NCBI GenBank assembly: GCA_964565875.1
Contig: CAZMGP010000016.1
Location: 12,269-76,268 of the forward strand
Source of the DNA: an uncultured Enterobacteriaceae bacterium
Lineage (GTDB): Bacteria > Pseudomonadota > Gammaproteobacteria > Burkholderiales > SG8-39
Length of the DNA stretch: 64,000 bases
Direction of reading: 5' to 3'
The position numbers and the translations under genes are program-made. The notes beneath the pieces were generated by a model that did not search any database, was not told the origin of the DNA, and saw only the letters and a program-made list of their open reading frames with translations. Position 1 is the first letter of the stretch. Each line of letters starts with the position of its first letter. This document shows positions 1,364 to 49,573 of this stretch, piece by piece.

Positions 1364-1379
1364 GATCGTCTCCTCCTCC

Positions 1380-4292
1380 TCAGGCGCGCTCGATCTGGCA
1401 GAGCGTGGTCTTGGTTTCTTGCATCATGGTCACGGCGTCGTAACCGTAGGTCGTCGCGGTGTTCACCGCTTCGCCGCGGACGATCGGCGCCGCCCCGTCC
1501 GGATAGAAGTCGAGCATGTCCTTGCCCATCCACCAGCCGGAGAAGTGGAACGGCAGGAACACCGTATCCGGTCCGACGCGCTCGGTGACCTGCGCCATGA
1601 CCTTCAGCTTCGCCCCGGTCGGAGTCTTCACCCAGACGTAGTCGTTGTTGCGGATGCCGCGGTCGTTTGCCGACTTGGGATTGATCTCGACGAACATGCT
1701 CTGCTGCAGCTCGGCGAGCCAGGCGTTGGAACGCGTCTCCTCGCCGCCGCCCTCGTACTCGACCAGCCGGCCGCTGGTCATGATCAGCGGGAACTCCTTG
1801 GAGATGTCCTTGTTCTTCTGCTGCACCGACTTGTACAGCGTCGGCAGGCGCCAGAACGCCTTCTTGTCGTCGTGGGTCGGATACTTGTCGATGAGATCCG
1901 GCCGCGGCGAATAGAGCGGTTCGCGGTGCAGCGGCACGCCGTCGGGGAAGTTCCACACCACCGCGCGCGCCTTCGCATTCCCGAACGGATGGCAGCCGTG
2001 GACTTTCATCACCACGCGCTGGATGCCGCCGGAGAGGTCGGTCTTCCAGTTCTTGCCCTCGGCCTCTTTCTTCTCCTCGTCGGTGAGGTCGTCCCACCAG
2101 CCGAGCTTCTTCAGGAGCACGTGGTCGAATTCGGGATAGCCGGTGGTCAGATCGGCGCCCTTGGAGTACGAGCCGTCCTCGGCGAGCAGGTTCACCCCGT
2201 CCTTCTCCACGCCGAAGTTCGCGCGGAAGTTGCCGCCGCCGTCCATGACGTGGCGCGCGGTCATGTACAGGTTGGGCGAGCCCGGGTGCTTGAGCTCGGG
2301 CGTGCCGTAGCAGGGCCAAGGCAGGCCGTAATAGTCGCCGTCACAAGGCCCGCCCTTGGCGCGCAAGGTCTTGACGTCGAAGGTGTGCATGTTCTTCATG
2401 TGCAGCTTGAGCCGCTCGGGGGACTGCCCGGTATAGCCGATGGTCCAGGTGCCGCGGTTGAATTCGCGCGTGATGTCCTCGATCACGGGCTCGTCGTTCT
2501 TCACCTGGATGTTCTGCTTGCCGTCGCGCTTGCCCACCAACTGGTCGGCGAAGCCGAACTTCTTCGCGAACAGATACATGATGGTCTGGTCGGGCTTGGA
2601 CTCGAACAGCGGCTCGATCACTTTCTCGCGCCACTGCAGCGAGCGGTTGGAGGCGGTGACGCTGCCCGAAGTCTCGAACTGCGTCGCCGCCGGCAGCAGG
2701 TAGACGCCGTCCTTCCTCACCATCGCCGCCATCGCGGCGGTGGCCGACGGATAAGGATCGATCACCACCAGCAGGTCGAGCTTCTTCATCGCCTCGACCA
2801 TTTCCTTGCCGCGCGTCTGGCTGTTCGGCGCATGGCCCCAGTAGATCACAGCGCGCAAGTTCGGGTCCTGGTCGATGAGCTCGTTCTTCTCCGTTACGCC
2901 GTCGATCCAGCGCGACACGGTGATGCCCGGTTTGGTCATCATCGCTTCGGAGGCATACTGCTTCTTCAGCCAGGCAAGATCGACGTTCCAAACCTTTGCC
3001 CAATGCGCCCAGGCGCCGGGGATGATGCCGTAGTAGCCGGGCAGCGAATCCGGATTCGGCCCGATGTCGGTCGCGCCTTGCACGTTGTCGTGGCCGCGGA
3101 AGATGTTCGCGCCGCCGCCCATGACGCCGATGTTCCCCAGTGCGAGCTGGAAGATGCAGAAGGCGCGCACCATGGCGTTGCCGATGGTGTGCTGAGTCTG
3201 CCCCATGCACCAGACGATGCTCGAGGGCCGGTTCTTGGCCATGGTCTCGGCGATCTTGTAGCAATCCTCCTCGGACACGCCGGCGACTTCCTTCACCCGG
3301 TCGGGAGTCCACTTCATCACCTCTTCCTTCACCTTCTCCATGCCGTAGACGCGGTCGTGGATGTATTGCTTGTCCTCCCAGCCGTTCTTGAACACGTGAT
3401 AGAGCACGCCGTAGATCACCGGGATGTCGGTGCCGGAGCGGATGCGCACGTAATGGTCGGCCTTGGCCGCGGTGCGGGTGAAGCGCGGATCGGCGACGAT
3501 GATCTTGGCGCCGCCTTCCTTCGCATGCAGGATGTGCAGCAGCGACACCGGATGCGCTTCGGCGGCGTTAGAGCCCATGAACCAAATCGCCTTCGCGTTC
3601 TGCATGTCGTTGTAGGAGTTGGTCATGGCGCCGTAACCCCAGGTGTTGGCGACGCCGGCGACCGTAGTCGAATGGCAGATGCGCGCCTGGTGGTCGGTGT
3701 TGTTGGTGCCGAACAGGCGCACGAACTTGCACAGCAGATAGGACTGTTCGTTGCTGTGCTTGGACGAGCCGATCCAGTAGGTCGCGTCCGGGCCGCTTTC
3801 CTTTCTGATCGCGAGCAGCTTGTCGCCGACTTCGCTGATCGCCTGCTGCCACGAGATGCGCTGATACTTGCCGTTCACCAGCTTCATCGGATATTTCAGC
3901 CGGTGGGAGTGTTCGGTCATGCCGTGCTCGCGCACCGCCGCGCCCTTGGCGCAGTGCGAGCCGAGATTGATGGGCGAATCGAACACCGGCTCCTGCCGCA
4001 CCCACACCCCGTTCTGCACCACCGCGTCGATGGCGCAGCCGACCGAGCAGTGGGTGCAGATGGTGCGCTTCACCTCGACCTTGCTGCCCTCTGCGGGTAC
4101 CGGCGCGGCGTCGGCCTTGCCGATGACGTTGAACGGCAACTGCGAGGCGAATGCACCCGCACCGGCGGCGAGGCCGGAGCGCTTGAGGAAGGCGCGGCGA
4201 TCGACGGTGGTCGCCGCTGCGCCTGCGAGGCCGCGTGTCAGCTTGCTGCGCCCTTCACCGGACGCGACGTTGGTGGACTTGCGCGTGAGCAT
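1380..4292 (-). CDS. Formate dehydrogenase alpha subunit (molybdopterin), Tat-exported, Cys-type
   Basis: 970 aa. Twin-arginine signal (DRRAFLKRSGLAAGAGA), N-terminal CTHCSVGC Fe-S motif, and active-site region ARICHSTTV with Cys where Sec-type enzymes carry U. Continuous ORF with no in-frame TGA. Confidence 0.93.
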   Translation of the reverse strand: MLTRKSTNVASGEGRSKLTRGLAGAAATTVDRRAFLKRSGLAAGAGAFASQLPFNVIGKADAAPVPAEGSKVEVKRTICTHCSVGCAIDAVVQNGVWVRQEPVFDSPINLGSHCAKGAAVREHGMTEHSHRLKYPMKLVNGKYQRISWQQAISEVGDKLLAIRKESGPDATYWIGSSKHSNEQSYLLCKFVRLFGTNNTDHQARICHSTTVAGVANTWGYGAMTNSYNDMQNAKAIWFMGSNAAEAHPVSLLHILHAKEGGAKIIVADPRFTRTAAKADHYVRIRSGTDIPVIYGVLYHVFKNGWEDKQYIHDRVYGMEKVKEEVMKWTPDRVKEVAGVSEEDCYKIAETMAKNRPSSIVWCMGQTQHTIGNAMVRAFCIFQLALGNIGVMGGGANIFRGHDNVQGATDIGPNPDSLPGYYGIIPGAWAHWAKVWNVDLAWLKKQYASEAMMTKPGITVSRWIDGVTEKNELIDQDPNLRAVIYWGHAPNSQTRGKEMVEAMKKLDLLVVIDPYPSATAAMAAMVRKDGVYLLPAATQFETSGSVTASNRSLQWREKVIEPLFESKPDQTIMYLFAKKFGFADQLVGKRDGKQNIQVKNDEPVIEDITREFNRGTWTIGYTGQSPERLKLHMKNMHTFDVKTLRAKGGPCDGDYYGLPWPCYGTPELKHPGSPNLYMTARHVMDGGGNFRANFGVEKDGVNLLAEDGSYSKGADLTTGYPEFDHVLLKKLGWWDDLTDEEKKEAEGKNWKTDLSGGIQRVVMKVHGCHPFGNAKARAVVWNFPDGVPLHREPLYSPRPDLIDKYPTHDDKKAFWRLPTLYKSVQQKNKDISKEFPLIMTSGRLVEYEGGGEETRSNAWLAELQQSMFVEINPKSANDRGIRNNDYVWVKTPTGAKLKVMAQVTERVGPDTVFLPFHFSGWWMGKDMLDFYPDGAAPIVRGEAVNTATTYGYDAVTMMQETKTTLCQIERA

Positions 4293-4505: not shown

Positions 4506-4557
4506 TTTCCTCCTCCTCGCAAAAGAACCTAGGCCGAAAACGTCTGACCGGGGGGGG

Positions 4558-30006: not shown

Positions 30007-30090
30007 GGAAACGGGATCCGCACGAGGGTTTCCTCCTCCTCATATGCGGCGGTATCGGCGGCCGTTTCCGCGCGAGCGGAAGCGGCCGCC
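30007..30090 (+). other. Structured element: hairpin presenting a UUUCCUCCUCCUC loop, overlapping a 15-bp GNRA-capped hairpin
   Basis: Inner stem CCGCA/TGCGG (30018-22/30045-49) with a 22-nt CU-rich loop. Outer stem GGAAACGG/CCGTTTCC (30007-14/30062-69). Competing 15-bp stem 30057-71/30076-90 with GCGA loop. Strand and function unresolved. Confidence 0.35.
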
Positions 30091-44824: not shown

Positions 44825-45973
44825 TCAATAGGTGCCGGGCACCAGTATCGAAGAATTCACCTGCTTCACGTCGCGCAATCCGCAGAACGCGATCGTGAGG
44901 TCAATCTCGTTGCGGATGATTTCCAGCGCCTTGGTCACGCCTGCCTCTCCCATCGCTCCCAAGCCGTACACGAACGCGCGGCCGATGAATACGCCCTTGG
45001 CGCCGAGTGCAAGCGCCTTGACCACGTCCTGGCCGGAGCGAATGCCGCTGTCCATCAGCACTTCGATCTTGTTCCCCACCGCGCGCGCGATCGGCGGCAA
45101 AGCTGCGATCGCGGAAGGCGCGCCGTCGAGCTGCCGCCCGCCGTGGTTGGAGACGACGATCGCGTGTGCGCCGGTGCGCGCCGCAATTTCCGCATCCTCC
45201 GCGTCCATGATGCCCTTCAGGATCAGCTTGCCGCCCCACGCATCCTGGATCCACTTTACGTCGTCCCAGTTGAGCGTGGGGTCGAGCTGGCTCGCGCTCC
45301 AGGAAGAAAGCGAACTCAAGTTCTCGACGCCGGTAGCGTGGCCGACAACGTTGCGAAAGGTGCGGCGATTCGTGCCGAGCATGCCCAGGCCCCAGCGCGG
45401 CTTGGTGACCATGTTCGCCATGTTGCGCAGCGTGATCTTGGGCGGCGCCGACAGCCCGTTCTTGATGTCCTTGTGCCGCTGCCCCATGATCTGCAGGTCG
45501 AGGGTGAGAACGAGCGCCGAGCAACCGGCCGCCTTGGCGCGCGCGATCAACCGTCGGATGAAATCGCGGTCGCGCATGACGTAGAGCTGAAACCAGAACG
45601 GGGCGCTGACGTTCTCGGCCACGTCTTCGATCGAGCAGATGCTCATCGTCGACATCGTGAACGGCACACCGAACTTTTCCGCGGCGCGCGCCGCCAGGAT
45701 CTCCCCGTCTGCATGCTGCATGCCCACGAGGCCGACCGGCGCCAAGGCCACCGGCATGCTCAGCTCCTGGCCGGCCATCGTCGACTTGAGCGTGCGATGC
45801 TCCATGTTGATGGCGACGCGCTGGCGCAGTTTGATCTTGGAAAAATCGCTCTCGTTCTCGTGGTACGTGCCTTCGGTCCAGGAACCGCCATCTGCATACT
45901 CGTAGAACATGCGCGGCACGCGCCTCCTCGCGAGTTGGCGCAAATCTTCGACACAGGTGATCACCGGGGGCAT
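44825..45973 (-). CDS. FMN-dependent alpha-hydroxy-acid dehydrogenase (L-lactate dehydrogenase-like)
   Basis: Internal ATG at 45973, 382 aa. SNHGGRQLD and GIRSGQDV motifs. Confidence 0.87.
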   Translation of the reverse strand: MPPVITCVEDLRQLARRRVPRMFYEYADGGSWTEGTYHENESDFSKIKLRQRVAINMEHRTLKSTMAGQELSMPVALAPVGLVGMQHADGEILAARAAEKFGVPFTMSTMSICSIEDVAENVSAPFWFQLYVMRDRDFIRRLIARAKAAGCSALVLTLDLQIMGQRHKDIKNGLSAPPKITLRNMANMVTKPRWGLGMLGTNRRTFRNVVGHATGVENLSSLSSWSASQLDPTLNWDDVKWIQDAWGGKLILKGIMDAEDAEIAARTGAHAIVVSNHGGRQLDGAPSAIAALPPIARAVGNKIEVLMDSGIRSGQDVVKALALGAKGVFIGRAFVYGLGAMGEAGVTKALEIIRNEIDLTIAFCGLRDVKQVNSSILVPGTY

Positions 45974-46070
45974 AACGACTCCGCATGCTGACAAAAGAAA
46001 GATCCCTCCTCCCACGGACCCGTCGCGAAATGCATTTCCTGCAGCGGGCCGACCTCGGGGAGCATGAGGG

Positions 46071-46139
46071 GATGCGCCCCGCGGGAAGCCCCCTTGGGGG
46101 ACGCCCCGAAGGAAGTGCCCTTGGGGCATGTCCCCTCAC
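46071..46139. repeat. Imperfect 27-29 nt tandem repeat (about 2.4 copies) of GGGG-N-CCCC mini-palindromes
   Basis: GATGCGCCCCGCGGGAAGCCCCCTTGGGG / GACGCCCCGAAGGAAGTGCCCTTGGGG / CATGTCCCC. Intergenic, upstream of the lldD-like gene. Confidence 0.4.
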
Positions 46140-46255
46140 ATTTGGTAACGAATACTAAGGCAAAGCGGGGGCGAATGCCAGGAAAGTGCGCGCCGGAACC
46201 GTGGGCGCGCGCCACCTGCACGGCGAGCCCGAAACGCAGCGTTGCGCGGAGTGCG

Positions 46256-46801
46256 TCAGCGCGTCCAGGTTGCGCGCAGGAGATTGTCTTCTTTGTTGTA
46301 GCGGAACTCGAGATCGCCTTTGTAGGCGTTGTGCAGCGCCTGCGCGATATCGCGCGCAAGATGCGTGTCGGTGGTCGTCACGGTCACGCCCTCGGCGTTA
46401 TCCTCGATGGCCATGATCCTCTGCAGCGGATGCTCCGCCTTTTCCTTCATCTCGTGATTGCGCAGAAGACTCAAAATATCGTCGCGGTGCTGCTGCAGAA
46501 ATTCGCCCTTCAGGGTCACGAAACCCGCCGGAAAGTGATCGTGTATGCGGTGACAGGCGGGACAGCGTGCTGCCTGCGCCTGCGCCGGCGCTTCTCCCCA
46601 GATCCAGCGGCCGCCGCGGAATACTGCGCCGCAATCCGGACAGCGCGTAGGCTCGCGCAGCTTGTGCCCGGACTTGTAGCTATCGTGAACCAGTTCCTTG
46701 AACAGTTGCTCCCTGCCGATCGGAGTGAAATTCCTGAGCCCGCCTTTCATGCTCGTCCCCTTGATTTTCGTCGCCATGTCGCTGAGCGCGCATCGCGTCA
46801 C
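46256..46801 (-). CDS. Conserved hypothetical protein with zinc-ribbon-like CPDC...CPAC pair
   Basis: 181-aa ORF. Start is uncertain (alternative Met residues at codons 9 and 18). No function recognised. Confidence 0.6.
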   Translation of the reverse strand: MTRCALSDMATKIKGTSMKGGLRNFTPIGREQLFKELVHDSYKSGHKLREPTRCPDCGAVFRGGRWIWGEAPAQAQAARCPACHRIHDHFPAGFVTLKGEFLQQHRDDILSLLRNHEMKEKAEHPLQRIMAIEDNAEGVTVTTTDTHLARDIAQALHNAYKGDLEFRYNKEDNLLRATWTR

Positions 46802-46923
46802 AAATCAACATACGCCCTCCGCGCATGGTCGATATGATTTCCGTCAAACGCGGCAGGAGGCGTTCCCGCGCCCCAGGCGGCTCGGACGTTCGAGGCGGCG
46901 GCGGAAGAGTTGCGCGGGTTGGA

Positions 46924-47523
46924 TTACGCGCTCGGGACGGCGCTTGCGCGCCGATCGAGCGAACCCGGCGCACGCACGGCGAGTAGCGAGCCCCAGCGCG
47001 CGATCCCGAGCGTGCCGAAGTATTCCCCGTGGGCGAGGCCTTCCTCAATCATCCAGCGCGTGAGTTCTTCGGCAGTGGGCGCCGACAGTTCGCGCTCGGC
47101 GCGGCATTCGCCTTCGCTCGTGTGCACGCGCATTTCCGCGCGCACAGCCATGCGCCGCATCGGCGCGTTGTCGCCGAGGAACATGACGAAGACGTGCCTA
47201 ACCCCGCACAGCCTCGCGCGGACGAGGAGCCTTTGCATGAGCAAGGTGCCGATGCCCTGGCCGCGGCGGTCCGCACGGACGGAAAATGCCATCTCGCTCG
47301 CGTCGGCGCCGTGCACGAGTTCCGCCAGTCCGATCAACTCCGCCCGCTCGTCGAAAGCGCCTAGGATCGAGTTGCCGGCAAAGTCGAGGCCGCGGACGTA
47401 GTTCAATATAGTCGCGTCCCCGAGCGCGCAGCAAAAGCGCCTGCGTCGGTCGGCCGGCGAGAGCGCCAGGTAGAAATCCTCGACGGCGTTCTGCTCGAAT
47501 ACGGTTAGCGGTCTGATAATCAT
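46924..47523 (-). CDS. GNAT-family acetyltransferase-like protein
   Basis: Internal ATG at 47523. RRGQGIGTLLM acetyl-CoA motif. Confidence 0.7.
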   Translation of the reverse strand: MIIRPLTVFEQNAVEDFYLALSPADRRRRFCCALGDATILNYVRGLDFAGNSILGAFDERAELIGLAELVHGADASEMAFSVRADRRGQGIGTLLMQRLLVRARLCGVRHVFVMFLGDNAPMRRMAVRAEMRVHTSEGECRAERELSAPTAEELTRWMIEEGLAHGEYFGTLGIARWGSLLAVRAPGSLDRRASAVPSA

Positions 47524-47663
47524 CCCAATTTGTCGCCTTACGCATCTACTTTGACCATGTATAGCATCTTGGTGCAATGCAGCATAGTGTTTTATATGAT
47601 CGTGAAGATCAGAAAATCCAATGGGGATAGAGCAATAATTGAACGAAAAATCACACTTGACTA

Positions 47664-47692
47664 TTGCATTGCAGCAAAGATTGTTGTATAGT
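47664..47692 (+). promoter_or_regulatory. Sigma-70-type promoter of the candidate sRNA
   Basis: TTGCAT (47664-69), a 17-nt spacer, then TATAGT (47687-92). Confidence 0.45.
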
Positions 47693-47699
47693 CTTTTCC

Positions 47700-47778
47700 A
47701 ACGGGGTTTCTCCTCCTCCTCCTTTGGAATCCCGTCTTCAAGCCGGTGGCGCTCCCAAAAGCCCCACCGGCTTTTTTT
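47700..47778 (+). ncRNA. Candidate ~80-nt small RNA with anti-Shine-Dalgarno loop (UCCUCCUCCUCC)
   Basis: Bracketed by the promoter above and an intrinsic terminator. Hairpin 1 is a 10-bp stem (47701-10/47726-35) with a 15-nt loop UCCUCCUCCUCCUUU. The terminator loop also contains CUCCC. It resembles, from memory, the betaproteobacterial toxic small RNA family. Confidence 0.5.
47742..47778 (+). terminator. Intrinsic terminator
   Basis: GCCGGTGG/CCACCGGC 8-bp stem (47742-49/47764-71) followed by T7 (47772-78). Confidence 0.65.
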
Positions 47779-47836
47779 CGGAATAAATTCATCATCCTAG
47801 GCTGTTATCCCCAAGTCAGGCGCGCGTCCCGTGCCT

Positions 47837-47852
47837 TGGCATAGCGCTTGCT
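47837..47852 (+). promoter_or_regulatory. Sigma-54 (-24/-12) promoter-like sequence
   Basis: TGGCAT-N5-TTGCT has exact consensus spacing (consensus TGGCAC-N5-TTGCW). It lies about 230 nt upstream of the gene starting at 48080. Confidence 0.35.
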
Positions 47853-48079: not shown

Positions 48080-49573
48080 TTGGACATGAGGTCCGGCATT
48101 TCCCAGGCAAGAAGTTCCGGCGCGGGTACGTTCAACCTCCTGCGCCACTATGCGACGACCAGCCTCGTCAGCGTCGTGGTCGCAGCAGCGCTGCTCGTGG
48201 CGCTCTACCGCCAACTCGAAATTCAGGAGAACGTCGAGCTCGCGCAGAAGAGCGACGTGGCCGCGGCCGACACGCTGTTCGACTCGGTGAGGCCGCAGCT
48301 CGGCCAATATCTGGCCGACGTGGCGCGCACGGACCGCGCATATCGATCCGACGCGCGCATACCCGCCGAACTCGCATCCGAGCTTGCAGGCATGGTGCGC
48401 CCGCCCTCGGTCGCCGCCATCGAGATCTACGACGACGCGGGCGTCATCGTCTATTCCACCCGCTCCGGCAGGACCGGCGCCGTCGCGGCCGGCAACCCGG
48501 GATTTGCGTCTGCGCGGCGCGGCGAGGCGGTGAGCGAAGTGCCCTCGCGCAATTGGCTCGATCAGTTCAAGTGGGCCGCCGACGAGGAAGACGTCGGACG
48601 GACCTACCTACCCGTGCGGCGTAGCGGCCGCGAACCGGTGCTCGGCGTCATCGCCCTCGAAACGGACTACGGCCCGCTGCGGGCGGGAAACGAGCACGAG
48701 GTGCGCACCGTCATCGCCGGCGTTGCCGCGATTCTCCTGCTGCTCTACGCCGTGCTGTTCTTCACCGTGTTGCGCGCGCATCGAATCATCACCACGCAAC
48801 AGGCGACGATACGCGAGCGCACCGAGACTCTGGAAGCCGTTTCTGCGATGCTCCTGAACCAGAGCGAGATCGAAAAGAAGAAACTCGCGAACGAATTGCA
48901 GGAAGACCTGGCGCAAACCTTGAGCGCGATCAGGATGCGCATCGAGGAGGGCCTGGATCCGGCGAGTGCGACGGAGCCGCAGGCGCAGCCGCTCGCGCGC
49001 ATCGTTTCCGCGCTGCGCGGCGTGGTCGAAGAACTGCATCACACTGCCATGGCCCTGCGGCCGTCCAGCCTCGACGAGCTCGGGCTGCTGCCGACGCTAC
49101 ATTGGTACTGCCGCGATTTCGAGCGCACGCATCCCGGCGTGATGGTGGAGCGCAAGCTGTTGCTGCGCGAAGAGGAGGTTCCCGCGCATCTCAAGATTGA
49201 GATCTATCGCGTCGTCGAAACCATCCTCAAAGACATCGCAGAGCACGCGCAGAGCGGCCGCATCGAGCTTGCCCTCGCGTTCATCGGCGACACGCTGGCG
49301 CTCAGCATCGACGCGGCGCCGGCTGCCCTCGATGTGGGAGCGCCAGAGGCAGACGCGGCAGCCCGTGCGCGCCTGGACTTCGTCATCGCCAAGGAACGCA
49401 CCAAGCTCTCGGGTGGCAGATTCTCCGTAGCGCGCGCGAGGCGCGGTGCGCTTACCCTGCGCGCGGACTGGCCGATCGCGGCGTCCGAGCGGGCGCGCCA
49501 AGCAGACCGCAGCGACGCCGATACGCTAGCGGCATCAATTGGTCCGTTGCAAGATACCTTCCGCAACGGGTGA
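48080..49573 (+). CDS. Membrane sensor with degenerate HisKA_3/HATPase transmitter (pseudo-histidine kinase)
   Basis: 497 aa with two TM helices flanking a ~170-aa periplasmic domain. The C-terminal half is homologous to the neighbouring kinase, but the H-box His is replaced (ANELQEDLAQ vs AADLHDGLGQ) and the N, G1 and G2 boxes are lost. Confidence 0.8.
   Translation: MDMRSGISQARSSGAGTFNLLRHYATTSLVSVVVAAALLVALYRQLEIQENVELAQKSDVAAADTLFDSVRPQLGQYLADVARTDRAYRSDARIPAELASELAGMVRPPSVAAIEIYDDAGVIVYSTRSGRTGAVAAGNPGFASARRGEAVSEVPSRNWLDQFKWAADEEDVGRTYLPVRRSGREPVLGVIALETDYGPLRAGNEHEVRTVIAGVAAILLLLYAVLFFTVLRAHRIITTQQATIRERTETLEAVSAMLLNQSEIEKKKLANELQEDLAQTLSAIRMRIEEGLDPASATEPQAQPLARIVSALRGVVEELHHTAMALRPSSLDELGLLPTLHWYCRDFERTHPGVMVERKLLLREEEVPAHLKIEIYRVVETILKDIAEHAQSGRIELALAFIGDTLALSIDAAPAALDVGAPEADAAARARLDFVIAKERTKLSGGRFSVARARRGALTLRADWPIAASERARQADRSDADTLAASIGPLQDTFRNG

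What the first reader, a model, noticed from the sequence alone, without database searches (positions are those of the whole stretch)
47664..47778. Promoter-to-terminator small RNA whose loop is a perfect antisense of the extended Shine-Dalgarno sequences of the formate dehydrogenase genes in this window
Seen in sequence: a near-consensus promoter (TTGCAT-17-TATAGT) is followed by a 10-bp hairpin whose 15-nt loop is UCCUCCUCCUCCUUU. Then comes an 8-bp GC stem plus U7 terminator whose loop contains CUCCC.

The segment UCUCCUCCUCCUC (47709-47721) is identical to plus-strand 1369-1381. It is therefore perfectly complementary over 13 nt to the fdhB leader GAGGAGGAGGAGA. It is complementary over 11 nt to the leader of the small Tat protein (4508-4518).

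From memory: a betaproteobacterial 'toxic small RNA' family carries CCUCCUCCC anti-SD motifs in its hairpin loops. Membership is not verified here.

Inference: this is a trans-acting translational repressor or titrator targeting mRNAs with unusually long GGAGGAGG SDs, possibly including fdh.
Basis: partly seen in the sequence, partly recalled or inferred. Interest (0 to 1): 0.6.

Follow-up and report, generated by a model that had tools for sequence, protein, structure and literature searches.

The report
Genus-conserved anti-Shine-Dalgarno small RNA gene
This is very probably a real ~80-nt regulatory RNA gene whose exposed CU-rich loop mimics the ribosome's anti-Shine-Dalgarno sequence; it is a diverged relative of the known betaproteobacterial 'toxic small RNAs', and its proposed special link to formate dehydrogenase does not hold up in related genomes.

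Summary
The sequence features are all present as described. The element is not a chance hairpin. About 20 of 22 genomes of the same uncultured Burkholderiales genus carry 1-4 copies. Conservation starts at the -35 region, peaks in hairpin 1 (96% pairwise identity, invariant UCCUCCUCCUCCUUU loop), continues through a covarying terminator and stops after the U-run.

No Rfam family reaches its gathering score (RF02278 19.7 of 50 bits; ar14 27.3 of 58.8; CcsR1 22.8 of 65.3). Even so, the RNA shares three things with canonical RF02278 'toxic'/double-hairpin sRNAs: the core UCUCCUCC...CUCCUCCUUUGG, the hairpin-plus-terminator layout, and a distinctive promoter motif (A-tract, TTGC-N-GCAnCA, TAnnnT). 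Canonical RF02278 genes coexist with it in the genus. I read it as a separate, diverged branch of that kind.

The likely mechanism is Hfq-assisted occlusion of strong ribosome-binding sites. The fdh-specific idea fails the comparative test. The 13-nt fdhB and 11-nt Tat-ORF complementarities occur only in this genome, and relatives have ordinary SDs. Genome-wide, about 170 RBS-positioned sites pair over 9 nt or more. Periplasmic solute-binding protein genes account for five of about a dozen RBS sites pairing over 12 nt or more.

The parts
47661..47679 (+). Conserved promoter/operator-like motif CTATTGCATTGCAGCAAAG. It contains the -35 hexamer TTGCAT (47664-47669).
   Evidence: TTGC and GCAnCA are at least 90% conserved in 31 loci. 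The same motif at the same spacing lies upstream of canonical RF02278 genes in this genus and in other families.
47687..47692 (+). -10 hexamer TATAGT, 17 nt after the -35. The predicted transcription start is about 47699-47700.
   Evidence: The sequence is. The aligned position in relatives reads TAnTAT (TACTAT, TATTAT, TAGTAT). The TSS is inferred, not measured.
47701..47735 (+). Hairpin 1: a 10-bp stem and a 15-nt loop UCCUCCUCCUCCUUU (47711-47725). This is the anti-SD seed and it mimics the 16S rRNA 3' tail (CCUCCUUU).
   Evidence: Fold. Mean pairwise identity is 0.96 across 30 loci. The loop is identical in 27 of 31 aligned loci; four paralogue copies carry insertions or substitutions. 99.6% of stem cells pair, but there is no both-sided covariation.
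47740..47778 (+). Rho-independent terminator: a GC-rich helix (core 47742-47749 with 47764-47771) and a U7 run at 47772-47778. The U-run is also a plausible Hfq-binding 3' end.
   Evidence: Fold. Four pairs show both-sided compensatory changes (GC to AU, GC to CG). 0 of 500 shuffles reach the observed covariation score. Conservation drops to 0.29 immediately after the U-run.
47570..47611 (.). A second copy of the palindromic motif (TGGTGCAATGCAGCA, 47570-47584) plus the inverted repeat TGATC-N5-GATCA (47597-47611). It lies between the sRNA and the divergent GNAT gene. It could be an operator or promoter for the GNAT operon, or an upstream + strand promoter giving a longer isoform.
   Evidence: The block is conserved in GNAT-linked loci of relatives, where the repeat reads TGATG-N5-CATCA, so both arms have changed. 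Its function was not tested.
46924..47523 (-). Divergently transcribed GNAT acetyltransferase gene. It is the first gene of a GNAT / BCAM0308-family / LldD-like operon and is the conserved syntenic neighbour of the sRNA.
   Evidence: Pfam and NCBIfam hits. tblastn finds GNAT next to the sRNA in most loci of the genus.
1369..1381 (-). fdhB (FDH3 beta) leader GAGGAGGAGGAGA, with 13-nt perfect complementarity to 47709-47721. It is a candidate target in this genome only.
   Evidence: Duplex energy is -29.1 kcal/mol, against -15.3 for a 16S tail. It is not conserved in 16 relatives.
4508..4518 (-). Leader of the small twin-arginine ORF upstream of fdhA, GAGGAGGAGGA, with 11-nt complementarity.
   Evidence: Duplex energy is -24.4 kcal/mol. 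The 13 relatives examined have ordinary SDs such as GAGGAG or GGAGGAG.

Best explanation
Window 47700-47778 (+) is proposed to be an independently transcribed ~80-nt trans-acting sRNA. A sigma-70-type promoter, overlapped by a conserved palindromic motif (probably the site of an unidentified regulator), would drive an RNA made of one hairpin and an intrinsic terminator.

The hairpin displays an invariant 15-nt CU-rich loop. The loop repeats the 16S rRNA anti-SD sequence (CCUCC) and ends in CCUCCUUU, like the 16S 3' tail. It would pair with purine-rich Shine-Dalgarno regions of many mRNAs and block 30S binding. This would probably be helped by Hfq, which the genome encodes and which typically binds terminator U-tails. 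mRNAs with long or strong SDs would be favoured, chiefly periplasmic solute-binding protein genes and some redox enzymes. In this genome that set includes fdhB.

The gene is a diverged, genus-restricted sister lineage of the Burkholderiales 'toxic small RNA' / double-hairpin RNA kind (Rfam RF02278).

What is shown: structure, conservation boundaries, covariation, copy number, synteny, promoter-motif sharing and complementarity statistics. What is inferred: transcription, Hfq dependence, repression and the target set.
For: - **Discrete unit.** BLAST matches in about 20 of 22 genus genomes begin at the -35 and end at the U-run. Pairwise identity runs 0.33 upstream, 0.67 in the promoter, 0.96 in hairpin 1, 0.79 in the terminator and 0.29 downstream.
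- **RNA structure.** z = -5.84. 98.2% of cells pair. Four terminator pairs show compensatory changes. 0 of 500 shuffles reach the covariation score.
- **Not coding.** The alignment has 1- and 2-nt indels.
- **Kinship to RF02278.** Full-length sub-threshold hits to RF02278, ar14 and CcsR1. My model R1 cross-hits canonical GUUGUCUCCUCC..CCUCCUCCUUUGGUGG sRNAs in 16 other genera at 27-32 bits. The promoter motif is shared at identical spacing.
- **Published behaviour of the kind.** The CU-rich regions are the reverse complement of RBSs, 55-80% of predicted interactions lie at start regions, and ncS27 overexpression slows growth (PMC5688073, PMC4603805).
- **Targets.** 422 sites pair over 9 nt or more, about 170 of them at RBS positions. 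Five of about a dozen RBS sites pairing over 12 nt or more are SBP_bac_6, NMT1, Peripla_BP_6 and two TctC receptor genes.
- **Energetics.** Loop-target duplexes are -22 to -29 kcal/mol, against -12 to -17 for a 16S tail.
- **Hfq.** An Hfq gene is present.
Against: - All carriers are uncultured MAGs.
- No Rfam model reaches its gathering score.
- The hairpin-1 stem is invariant, so it gives no covariation support.
- The -35 matches the consensus at only 3 of 6 positions, and the promoter scan was negative.
- Long complementarities (fdhB, the Tat ORF, the TCCAAAGGAGGAG sites) are not conserved in relatives. No conserved specific target was identified.
- SD complementarity is partly trivial for any CU-rich loop.
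Confidence: 0.65

Rival explanations
1. A dedicated regulator of the formate dehydrogenase operon. The sRNA would have evolved to pair with the unusually long SDs of fdhB and of the small Tat ORF, and would control FDH synthesis.
For: There are 13-nt and 11-nt perfect complementarities within the same 64-kb window. fdhB is among the six or so longest RBS-located matches in the 5.1-Mb genome. The duplex energy is -29.1 kcal/mol. The distantly similar CcsR RNAs have been linked to C1 metabolism; this comes from the title of a paper I recall, not one I read here.
Against: The loop is invariant across the genus, but fdhB leaders in 16 relatives read AAGAGGAC, AGGGGGA, AAGGGGA or AGGAGGAGAAG. Tat-ORF leaders in 13 relatives read GAGGAG or GGAGGAG. 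The sRNA is syntenic with a GNAT operon, not with fdh, which lies 43 kb away. Many other genes pair equally well.
Confidence: 0.1
2. A transcribed RNA that is not an mRNA repressor. It could be a decoy or sponge for another purine-rich RNA or for an RNA-binding protein. It could also be the processed 3' part of a longer transcript started at the upstream motif at 47570-47600, as the long form of ncS27 is.
For: The hairpin-1 stem is invariant even where pairing would tolerate change, which hints at constraint beyond structure. A second promoter-like copy of the motif lies about 95 nt upstream on the same strand. ncS27 is processed from a longer form (PMC5688073).
Against: No CsrA or ProQ homologue was found by tblastn. 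The loop carries no GGA motifs. Conservation is low between 47612 and 47660 in the genus alignment. The second paralogue group lacks the upstream block at that distance.
Confidence: 0.12
3. Not an RNA gene at all. It would be a conserved DNA element, such as a regulator-binding region plus a bidirectional terminator or insulator for the divergent GNAT operon, or a small protein-coding ORF (47664-47786 + encodes 40 aa; 47661-47795 - encodes 44 aa).
For: Short ORFs overlap the element. A palindromic DNA motif is present. Transcript data are lacking.
Against: The GNAT gene points away, so it needs no terminator here. The U-run follows the helix only on the + strand. Compensatory changes preserve RNA pairing. 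Indels of 1-2 nt break both ORFs in relatives. The unit recurs at unlinked loci with the same promoter-hairpin-terminator order.
Confidence: 0.05

Closest known systems
Betaproteobacteria toxic small RNA (Rfam RF02278), also called the 'double-hairpin RNAs' ncS03, ncS05, ncS27 and ncS62 of Burkholderia cenocepacia
   Same: - Same order (Burkholderiales), 60-90 nt long and multicopy.
- CU-rich anti-RBS sequence in unpaired regions, with a hairpin followed by an intrinsic terminator.
- Shared core UCUCCUCC...CUCCUCCUUUGG.
- Shared promoter motif (A-tract, TTGC-N-GCAnCA, about 9 nt, then TAnnnT).
- Predicted to act at ribosome-binding sites (PMC5688073).
   Different: - It scores 19.7 bits against a gathering score of 50.
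- The canonical form has two separate motifs: a single-stranded 5' UCUCCUCC, and CCUCCUCC in the loop of a CCACC/GGUGG stem. Here both are merged into one 15-nt loop closed by an unrelated 10-bp stem (CGGGGUUUC/GGAAUCCCG).
- Canonical copies coexist with it in 9 of 22 genus genomes, so it is a separate lineage.
- It has fixed synteny with a GNAT operon.
Cuckoo RNAs of Alphaproteobacteria: CcsR1-4 (RF02791) and ar14/NfeR1 (RF02344)
   Same: - Anti-SD CCUCCUCC motif presented in hairpin loops.
- Modular hairpins ending in a terminator.
- Multicopy.
- Full-length sub-threshold CM alignments at 22.8 and 27.3 bits, E about 0.002-0.003.
   Different: - The scores are far below the gathering scores of 65.3 and 58.8.
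- Cuckoo RNAs carry the exact CCUCCUCCC motif in every one of 2-4 hairpins (PMC4615179). Here only hairpin 1 carries a motif, and the CUCCC in the terminator loop is not conserved.
- It belongs to a different class of bacteria, and there is no evidence of shared ancestry.
16S rRNA 3' tail (anti-Shine-Dalgarno)
   Same: The loop ends in CCUCCUUU, the same letters as the usual proteobacterial 16S 3' end. That identity comes from general knowledge, because the 16S gene is not assembled in this MAG. The loop therefore recognises the same mRNA sequences.
   Different: The loop repeats the UCC unit four times. This allows 11-14-nt duplexes roughly twice as stable as the SD/anti-SD duplex. It is a competitor, not part of the ribosome.

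Membership tests
Rfam RF02278 Betaproteobacteria_toxic_sRNA | Covariance-model score at or above the gathering score (50 bits) | tested here: not met
   19.7 bits, E = 0.13. There was no gathering-level hit in the window. The best hit in the whole genome scores 24.4 bits.
Rfam RF02278 Betaproteobacteria_toxic_sRNA | Two CU-rich anti-RBS motifs: a 5' single-stranded UCUCCUCC, and CCUCCUCC in the loop of hairpin 1 | tested here: inconclusive
   Both motif sequences are present but fused into one loop, UCUCCUCCUCCUCCUUU. The CCACC/GGUGG stem is absent.
Rfam RF02278 Betaproteobacteria_toxic_sRNA | The second hairpin is a Rho-independent terminator, and total length is about 60-90 nt | tested here: met
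Rfam RF02278 Betaproteobacteria_toxic_sRNA | Several homologous copies per genome in Burkholderiales, with a common upstream motif | tested here: met
   There are 2 close copies in this genome and 1-4 in relatives. The promoter motif is shared with canonical RF02278 genes. PMC5688073 reports 3-5 copies and a common upstream motif in Burkholderia, but its sequence could not be compared.
Rfam RF02278 Betaproteobacteria_toxic_sRNA | Growth inhibition when cloned in E. coli, or when overexpressed in the native host | not testable with these tools
   This needs an experiment.
Cuckoo RNA family (RF02791 CcsR1, RF02344 ar14) | 2-4 adjacent hairpins, each carrying CCUCCUCCC in its loop | tested here: not met
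   Only hairpin 1 carries a CU motif (CCUCCUCCU...). The terminator-loop CUCCC is specific to this genome.
Cuckoo RNA family (RF02791 CcsR1, RF02344 ar14) | CM score at or above the gathering score | tested here: not met
   22.8 of 65.3 bits and 27.3 of 58.8 bits.
Hfq-dependent trans-acting sRNA (general class) | Own promoter, an intrinsic terminator with a U-tail of at least 6, an accessible seed, and Hfq encoded in the genome | tested here: met
   Actual Hfq binding was not tested.
Hfq-dependent trans-acting sRNA (general class) | A detectable discrete transcript | not testable with these tools

The most novel reading that the evidence does not exclude
A single unidentified regulator would recognise the palindromic TTGC-N6-GCAA / TGnTGC-N3-GCAnCA operator. 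Across several Burkholderiales families it would control a whole set of anti-SD sRNAs: canonical tsRNAs plus this fused-loop lineage. Together these would act as 16S-tail mimics that retune translation of strong-SD mRNAs (uptake systems and respiratory enzymes such as FDH) in response to one signal. The fused four-repeat loop would be a high-affinity specialist for extended SDs.
Probability: 0.2. Interest if true: 0.55.

Novelty: new variant of a known kind. Interest (0 to 1): 0.32.

Why it matters
The physiological role and upstream regulator of the Burkholderiales 'toxic'/double-hairpin sRNAs were described as unknown in the 2015-2017 B. cenocepacia papers read here. This locus adds three things:
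- A distinct lineage that the Rfam model misses.
- A shared promoter/operator motif that links the new and canonical lineages and gives a handle for finding the regulator.
- A cautionary example: striking sRNA-SD complementarity (13 nt to fdhB) can be lineage-specific and non-conserved.

It is of practical use for annotating groundwater, lake and soil Burkholderiales MAGs. It is not a new principle.

Tried and rejected
1. **Rfam at gathering thresholds** gave nothing, and only sub-threshold hits appeared at relaxed E-values.
2. **The consensus promoter/terminator scan** gave no calls. The -35 is 3 of 6, and the terminator loop exceeds the tool's 8-nt limit.
4. **Target co-evolution with the loop's UUUGG.** I tested whether targets are enriched for CC before AAAGGAG at RBSs. 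The result was 12 of 93 against a background of about 10%, so not enriched.
5. **Conservation of the 13-mer TCCAAAGGAGGAG.** It lies at three RBSs in this genome. I tested whether it is conserved in the genus. It occurs in 1 of 22 other genomes, so it was rejected as a conserved target signature.
6. **fdhB and Tat-ORF leader conservation** was rejected.
7. **Genome-wide search for the operator pattern** TGNTGCNNNGCANCA gave 24 hits, mostly in high-GC coding sequence, consistent with chance. No regulon could be inferred.
8. **The lxa/FNR-type motif** (TGA-N6-TCA, PMC3721108) was considered because the neighbouring gene is BCAM0308-family. It is not present at the sRNA promoter (sequence).
9. 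**Strong matches in two genomes outside the genus.** A match in a different family (G117) and one in an 'Acidobacteriota' MAG both lie on contigs of 2.5-2.9 kb. I regard them as likely binning errors rather than transfer.

Full report
**Observation**

- TTGCAT lies at 47664-47669, followed by 17 nt and TATAGT at 47687-47692.
- A 10-bp hairpin pairs 47701-47710 with 47726-47735. Its 15-nt loop at 47711-47725 reads UCCUCCUCCUCCUUU.
- An intrinsic terminator follows: a GC core (47742-47749 with 47764-47771) and a U7 run at 47772-47778.

The 83-nt stretch folds at -36.1 kcal/mol, z = -5.84, and no shuffle does as well. The loop is open in both the MFE and centroid structures.

TCTCCTCCTCCTC at 47709-47721 recurs exactly at 1369-1381 and, with one mismatch, at 4506-4518 and 30029-30041. 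That is 4 matches against 0.06 expected. Read on the minus strand, 1369-1381 is GAGGAGGAGGAGA, 5 nt before the ATG of an FDH3 beta-subunit gene (NF038355, 341 bits). Read the same way, 4508-4518 is GAGGAGGAGGA, just before the ATG of a 66-aa twin-arginine ORF that precedes the FDH alpha subunit.

Two details need correcting. The -35 matches TTGACA at only 3 of 6 positions, and the consensus scanner called neither promoter nor terminator. The CUCCC in the terminator loop is peculiar to this genome.

**Is it a real unit?**

The window comes from a 5.15-Mb, 64% GC, 155-contig MAG. A 161-nt query around the element finds matches in about 20 of the 22 other genomes of the same genus, with 1-4 copies each. 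The genomes without a match are incomplete: G007 is 73% and G016 is 75% complete. BLAST finds nothing in 18 other genera.

An exact-pattern scan of named genome records returns 28 contigs. All are uncultured 'Burkholderiales/Betaproteobacteria bacterium' MAGs from groundwater, lakes and soil.

The matches begin at the -35 and end at the U-run. Mean pairwise identity by segment is as follows:

| Segment | Identity |
|---|---|
| Upstream flank | 0.33 |
| Promoter | 0.67 |
| Hairpin 1 and linker | 0.96 |
| Terminator | 0.79 |
| Immediately downstream | 0.29 |

In the 31-sequence alignment, 98.2% of the cells of the predicted pairs form standard pairs. Four terminator pairs show both-sided compensatory changes (GC to AU, GC to CG). 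No shuffle out of 500 reaches the observed covariation score, and slid-partner controls collapse to 36-55% pairing.

The hairpin-1 stem is essentially invariant, so it neither supports nor contradicts the fold. Single- and double-nucleotide indels rule out the overlapping 40-53-aa ORFs.

The gene has a fixed neighbour, a divergently transcribed GNAT acetyltransferase / BCAM0308-family / LldD-like operon. A second close copy sits on contig C122 of the same genome: model R1 scores it 83 bits, against 96.7 for the window copy.

**What kind of RNA?**

No Rfam family reaches its gathering score. At relaxed thresholds, three anti-SD sRNA families align full-length:

| Family | Score (bits) | Gathering score (bits) |
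|---|---|---|
| ar14 | 27.3 | 58.8 |
| CcsR1 | 22.8 | 65.3 |
| RF02278 (betaproteobacterial toxic sRNA) | 19.7 | 50 |

A covariance model built from the genus alignment (R1) was searched against 200 genomes of the order. It picks up sRNAs in 16 other genera at 27-32 bits. These read GUUGUCUCCUCC-A(U/C)CCUCCUCCUUUGGUGGAUU followed by a terminator, which is the canonical RF02278 architecture.

RF02278 itself scores above its cut-off in 9 of the 22 genus genomes and in other families, but not in this genome. The present RNA is therefore a separate lineage that coexists with canonical tsRNAs. It is not their ortholog.

Two features argue that the lineages are related rather than convergent.
- **Shared core.** Both carry UCUCCUCC...CUCCUCCUUUGG. 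Here the core is fused into one loop and closed by a different stem.
- **Shared promoter.** Canonical tsRNA genes of this genus and of other families carry an A-tract, then TCTTGC(A/G)nnGCAnCAA, about 9 nt, then TAnnnT. This is the same layout as CTATTGCATTGCAGCAAAG ... TATAGT here. One canonical gene has the perfect palindrome TGGTGCAATGCACCA.

B. cenocepacia papers describe RF02278 members (ncS03/05/27/62) as 'double-hairpin RNAs'. [quoted passage not shown] They occur in 3-5 copies per genome, and some copies share a common upstream motif. Between 55% and 80% of predicted interactions lie at start regions. Overexpressing ncS27 attenuates growth, and silencing it does the opposite (PMC5688073, PMC4603805). 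The alphaproteobacterial cuckoo family is defined by CCUCCUCCC in every hairpin loop (PMC4615179). That definition is not met here.

**Mechanism and targets**

The loop repeats the anti-SD unit and ends in CCUCCUUU, like the usual 16S 3' tail. That comparison rests on general knowledge, because the MAG lacks an assembled 16S gene.

In this genome, 422 sites are complementary to the loop region over 9 or more contiguous nucleotides. About 170 of them sit 2-15 nt before a plausible start codon.

The RBS-positioned sites of 12 nt or more number about a dozen. They include:
- periplasmic solute-binding protein genes: SBP_bac_6, NMT1, Peripla_BP_6 and two TctC receptors;
- a 2-oxoacid:ferredoxin oxidoreductase gamma subunit;
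- a UGSC-family protein;
- a SnoaL-like/DUF4440 protein;
- fdhB.

Loop-leader duplexes are -22 to -29 kcal/mol, against -12 to -17 for a 16S tail on the same leaders. Hfq is encoded (84% identical to E. coli Hfq over 68 residues). No CsrA or ProQ homologue was found.

The best-supported mechanism is therefore Hfq-assisted occlusion of strong ribosome-binding sites across a broad target set, as proposed for the known kind. Transcription, Hfq binding and repression are inferred, not shown.

**The fdh hypothesis**

The sRNA loop is invariant in the genus, so a conserved target should keep its complementarity. It does not.
- Sixteen orthologous fdhA-fdhB junctions read AAGAGGAC, AGGGGGAC, AAGGGGAA, AAGGAGAGG or at most AGGAGGAGAAG.
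- Thirteen orthologous Tat-ORF leaders read GAGGAG, GGAGGAG or AAGGAGG.
- The striking 13-mer TCCAAAGGAGGAG, found at three other RBSs of this genome, occurs in only 1 of 22 relatives.

Extended (GGA)n SDs thus look like a peculiarity of this genome. In this organism fdhB may well be repressed by the sRNA, but there is no evidence that the RNA exists for fdh. It lies 43 kb away and is syntenic with an unrelated operon.

**Regulation**

The -35 region is embedded in a conserved, roughly palindromic motif (TTGC-N6-GCAA, or TGnTGCn-N-nGCAnCA). A second copy lies about 95 nt upstream at 47570-47584. It is followed by an inverted repeat at 47597-47611, TGATC-N5-GATCA, whose two arms change together in relatives to TGATG-N5-CATCA.

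This suggests control by a dimeric regulator shared with the divergent GNAT operon and with canonical tsRNA genes. A genome-wide pattern search gave mostly chance-level hits, and no regulator could be named. The FNR-like lxa motif reported for BCAM0308-type loci (PMC3721108) is not the motif seen here.

**Verdict**

The general interpretation (anti-SD sRNA of the betaproteobacterial toxic-sRNA kind) is supported as 'works like, and probably descends from'. Formal family membership is not met. The fdh-specific interpretation is not supported.

I rate the novelty as a new variant of a known kind: a fused-loop lineage missed by Rfam, restricted to one uncultured genus. Interest is moderate to low (0.32). 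The main value is for annotation, and the shared promoter motif gives a lead to the unknown regulator of this sRNA class.

Noticed in passing
window 47570-47611: A second copy of the palindromic promoter/operator motif (TGGTGCAATGCAGCA) lies here, followed by TGATC-N5-GATCA and AGAAAA. The block is conserved in relatives, where both arms of the inverted repeat have changed (TGATG-N5-CATCA). It may be the operator or promoter of the GNAT operon, or an upstream + strand promoter.
   Followed up: partly
window 47837-47852: A sigma-54-like element, TGGCAT-N5-TTGCT, lies downstream of the sRNA terminator and upstream of the NarX/UhpB-like sensor kinase ORF at 48080-49573.
   Followed up: no
L041:1501-1572 (+) and L042:1501-1573 (-); also G000:C5:105208-105292(-), C24 about 15134(-), C36:26248-26312(+), C15 about 60331(+): The genome holds at least six further hairpin-plus-terminator candidates with CUCCUCC-type loops. 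They are unrelated in stem sequence. On C36 a tsRNA-like unit is followed in tandem by a hairpin with a (CUC)n loop.
   Followed up: partly
G000:C7 about 59730 (-): A candidate sRNA with a UUUCCUCCCAUCCUU loop and a strong terminator has a perfect FNR/Anr box (TTGATcttgATCAA) about 60 nt upstream. It may be an oxygen-responsive anti-SD sRNA.
   Followed up: no
window 30029-30041: TTTCCTCCTCCTC followed by CAT lies here. On the minus strand this reads ATGAGGAGGAGGAAA. No ORF of 50 aa or more starts within 15 nt, so its role is unclear.
   Followed up: partly
L044 (G117:C146) and L073 (JAGWRH010000290.1, 'Acidobacteriota' MAG): Near-identical copies of the sRNA, one with the GNAT gene alongside, lie on contigs of 2.5-2.9 kb assigned to other taxa. 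These are most likely binning errors.
   Followed up: partly
window 44825-47523 (-): The conserved neighbour operon encodes a GNAT acetyltransferase, a BCAM0308-family protein (a family named from the low-oxygen-activated lxa locus of B. cenocepacia) and an LldD-like FMN-dependent dehydrogenase.
   Followed up: partly
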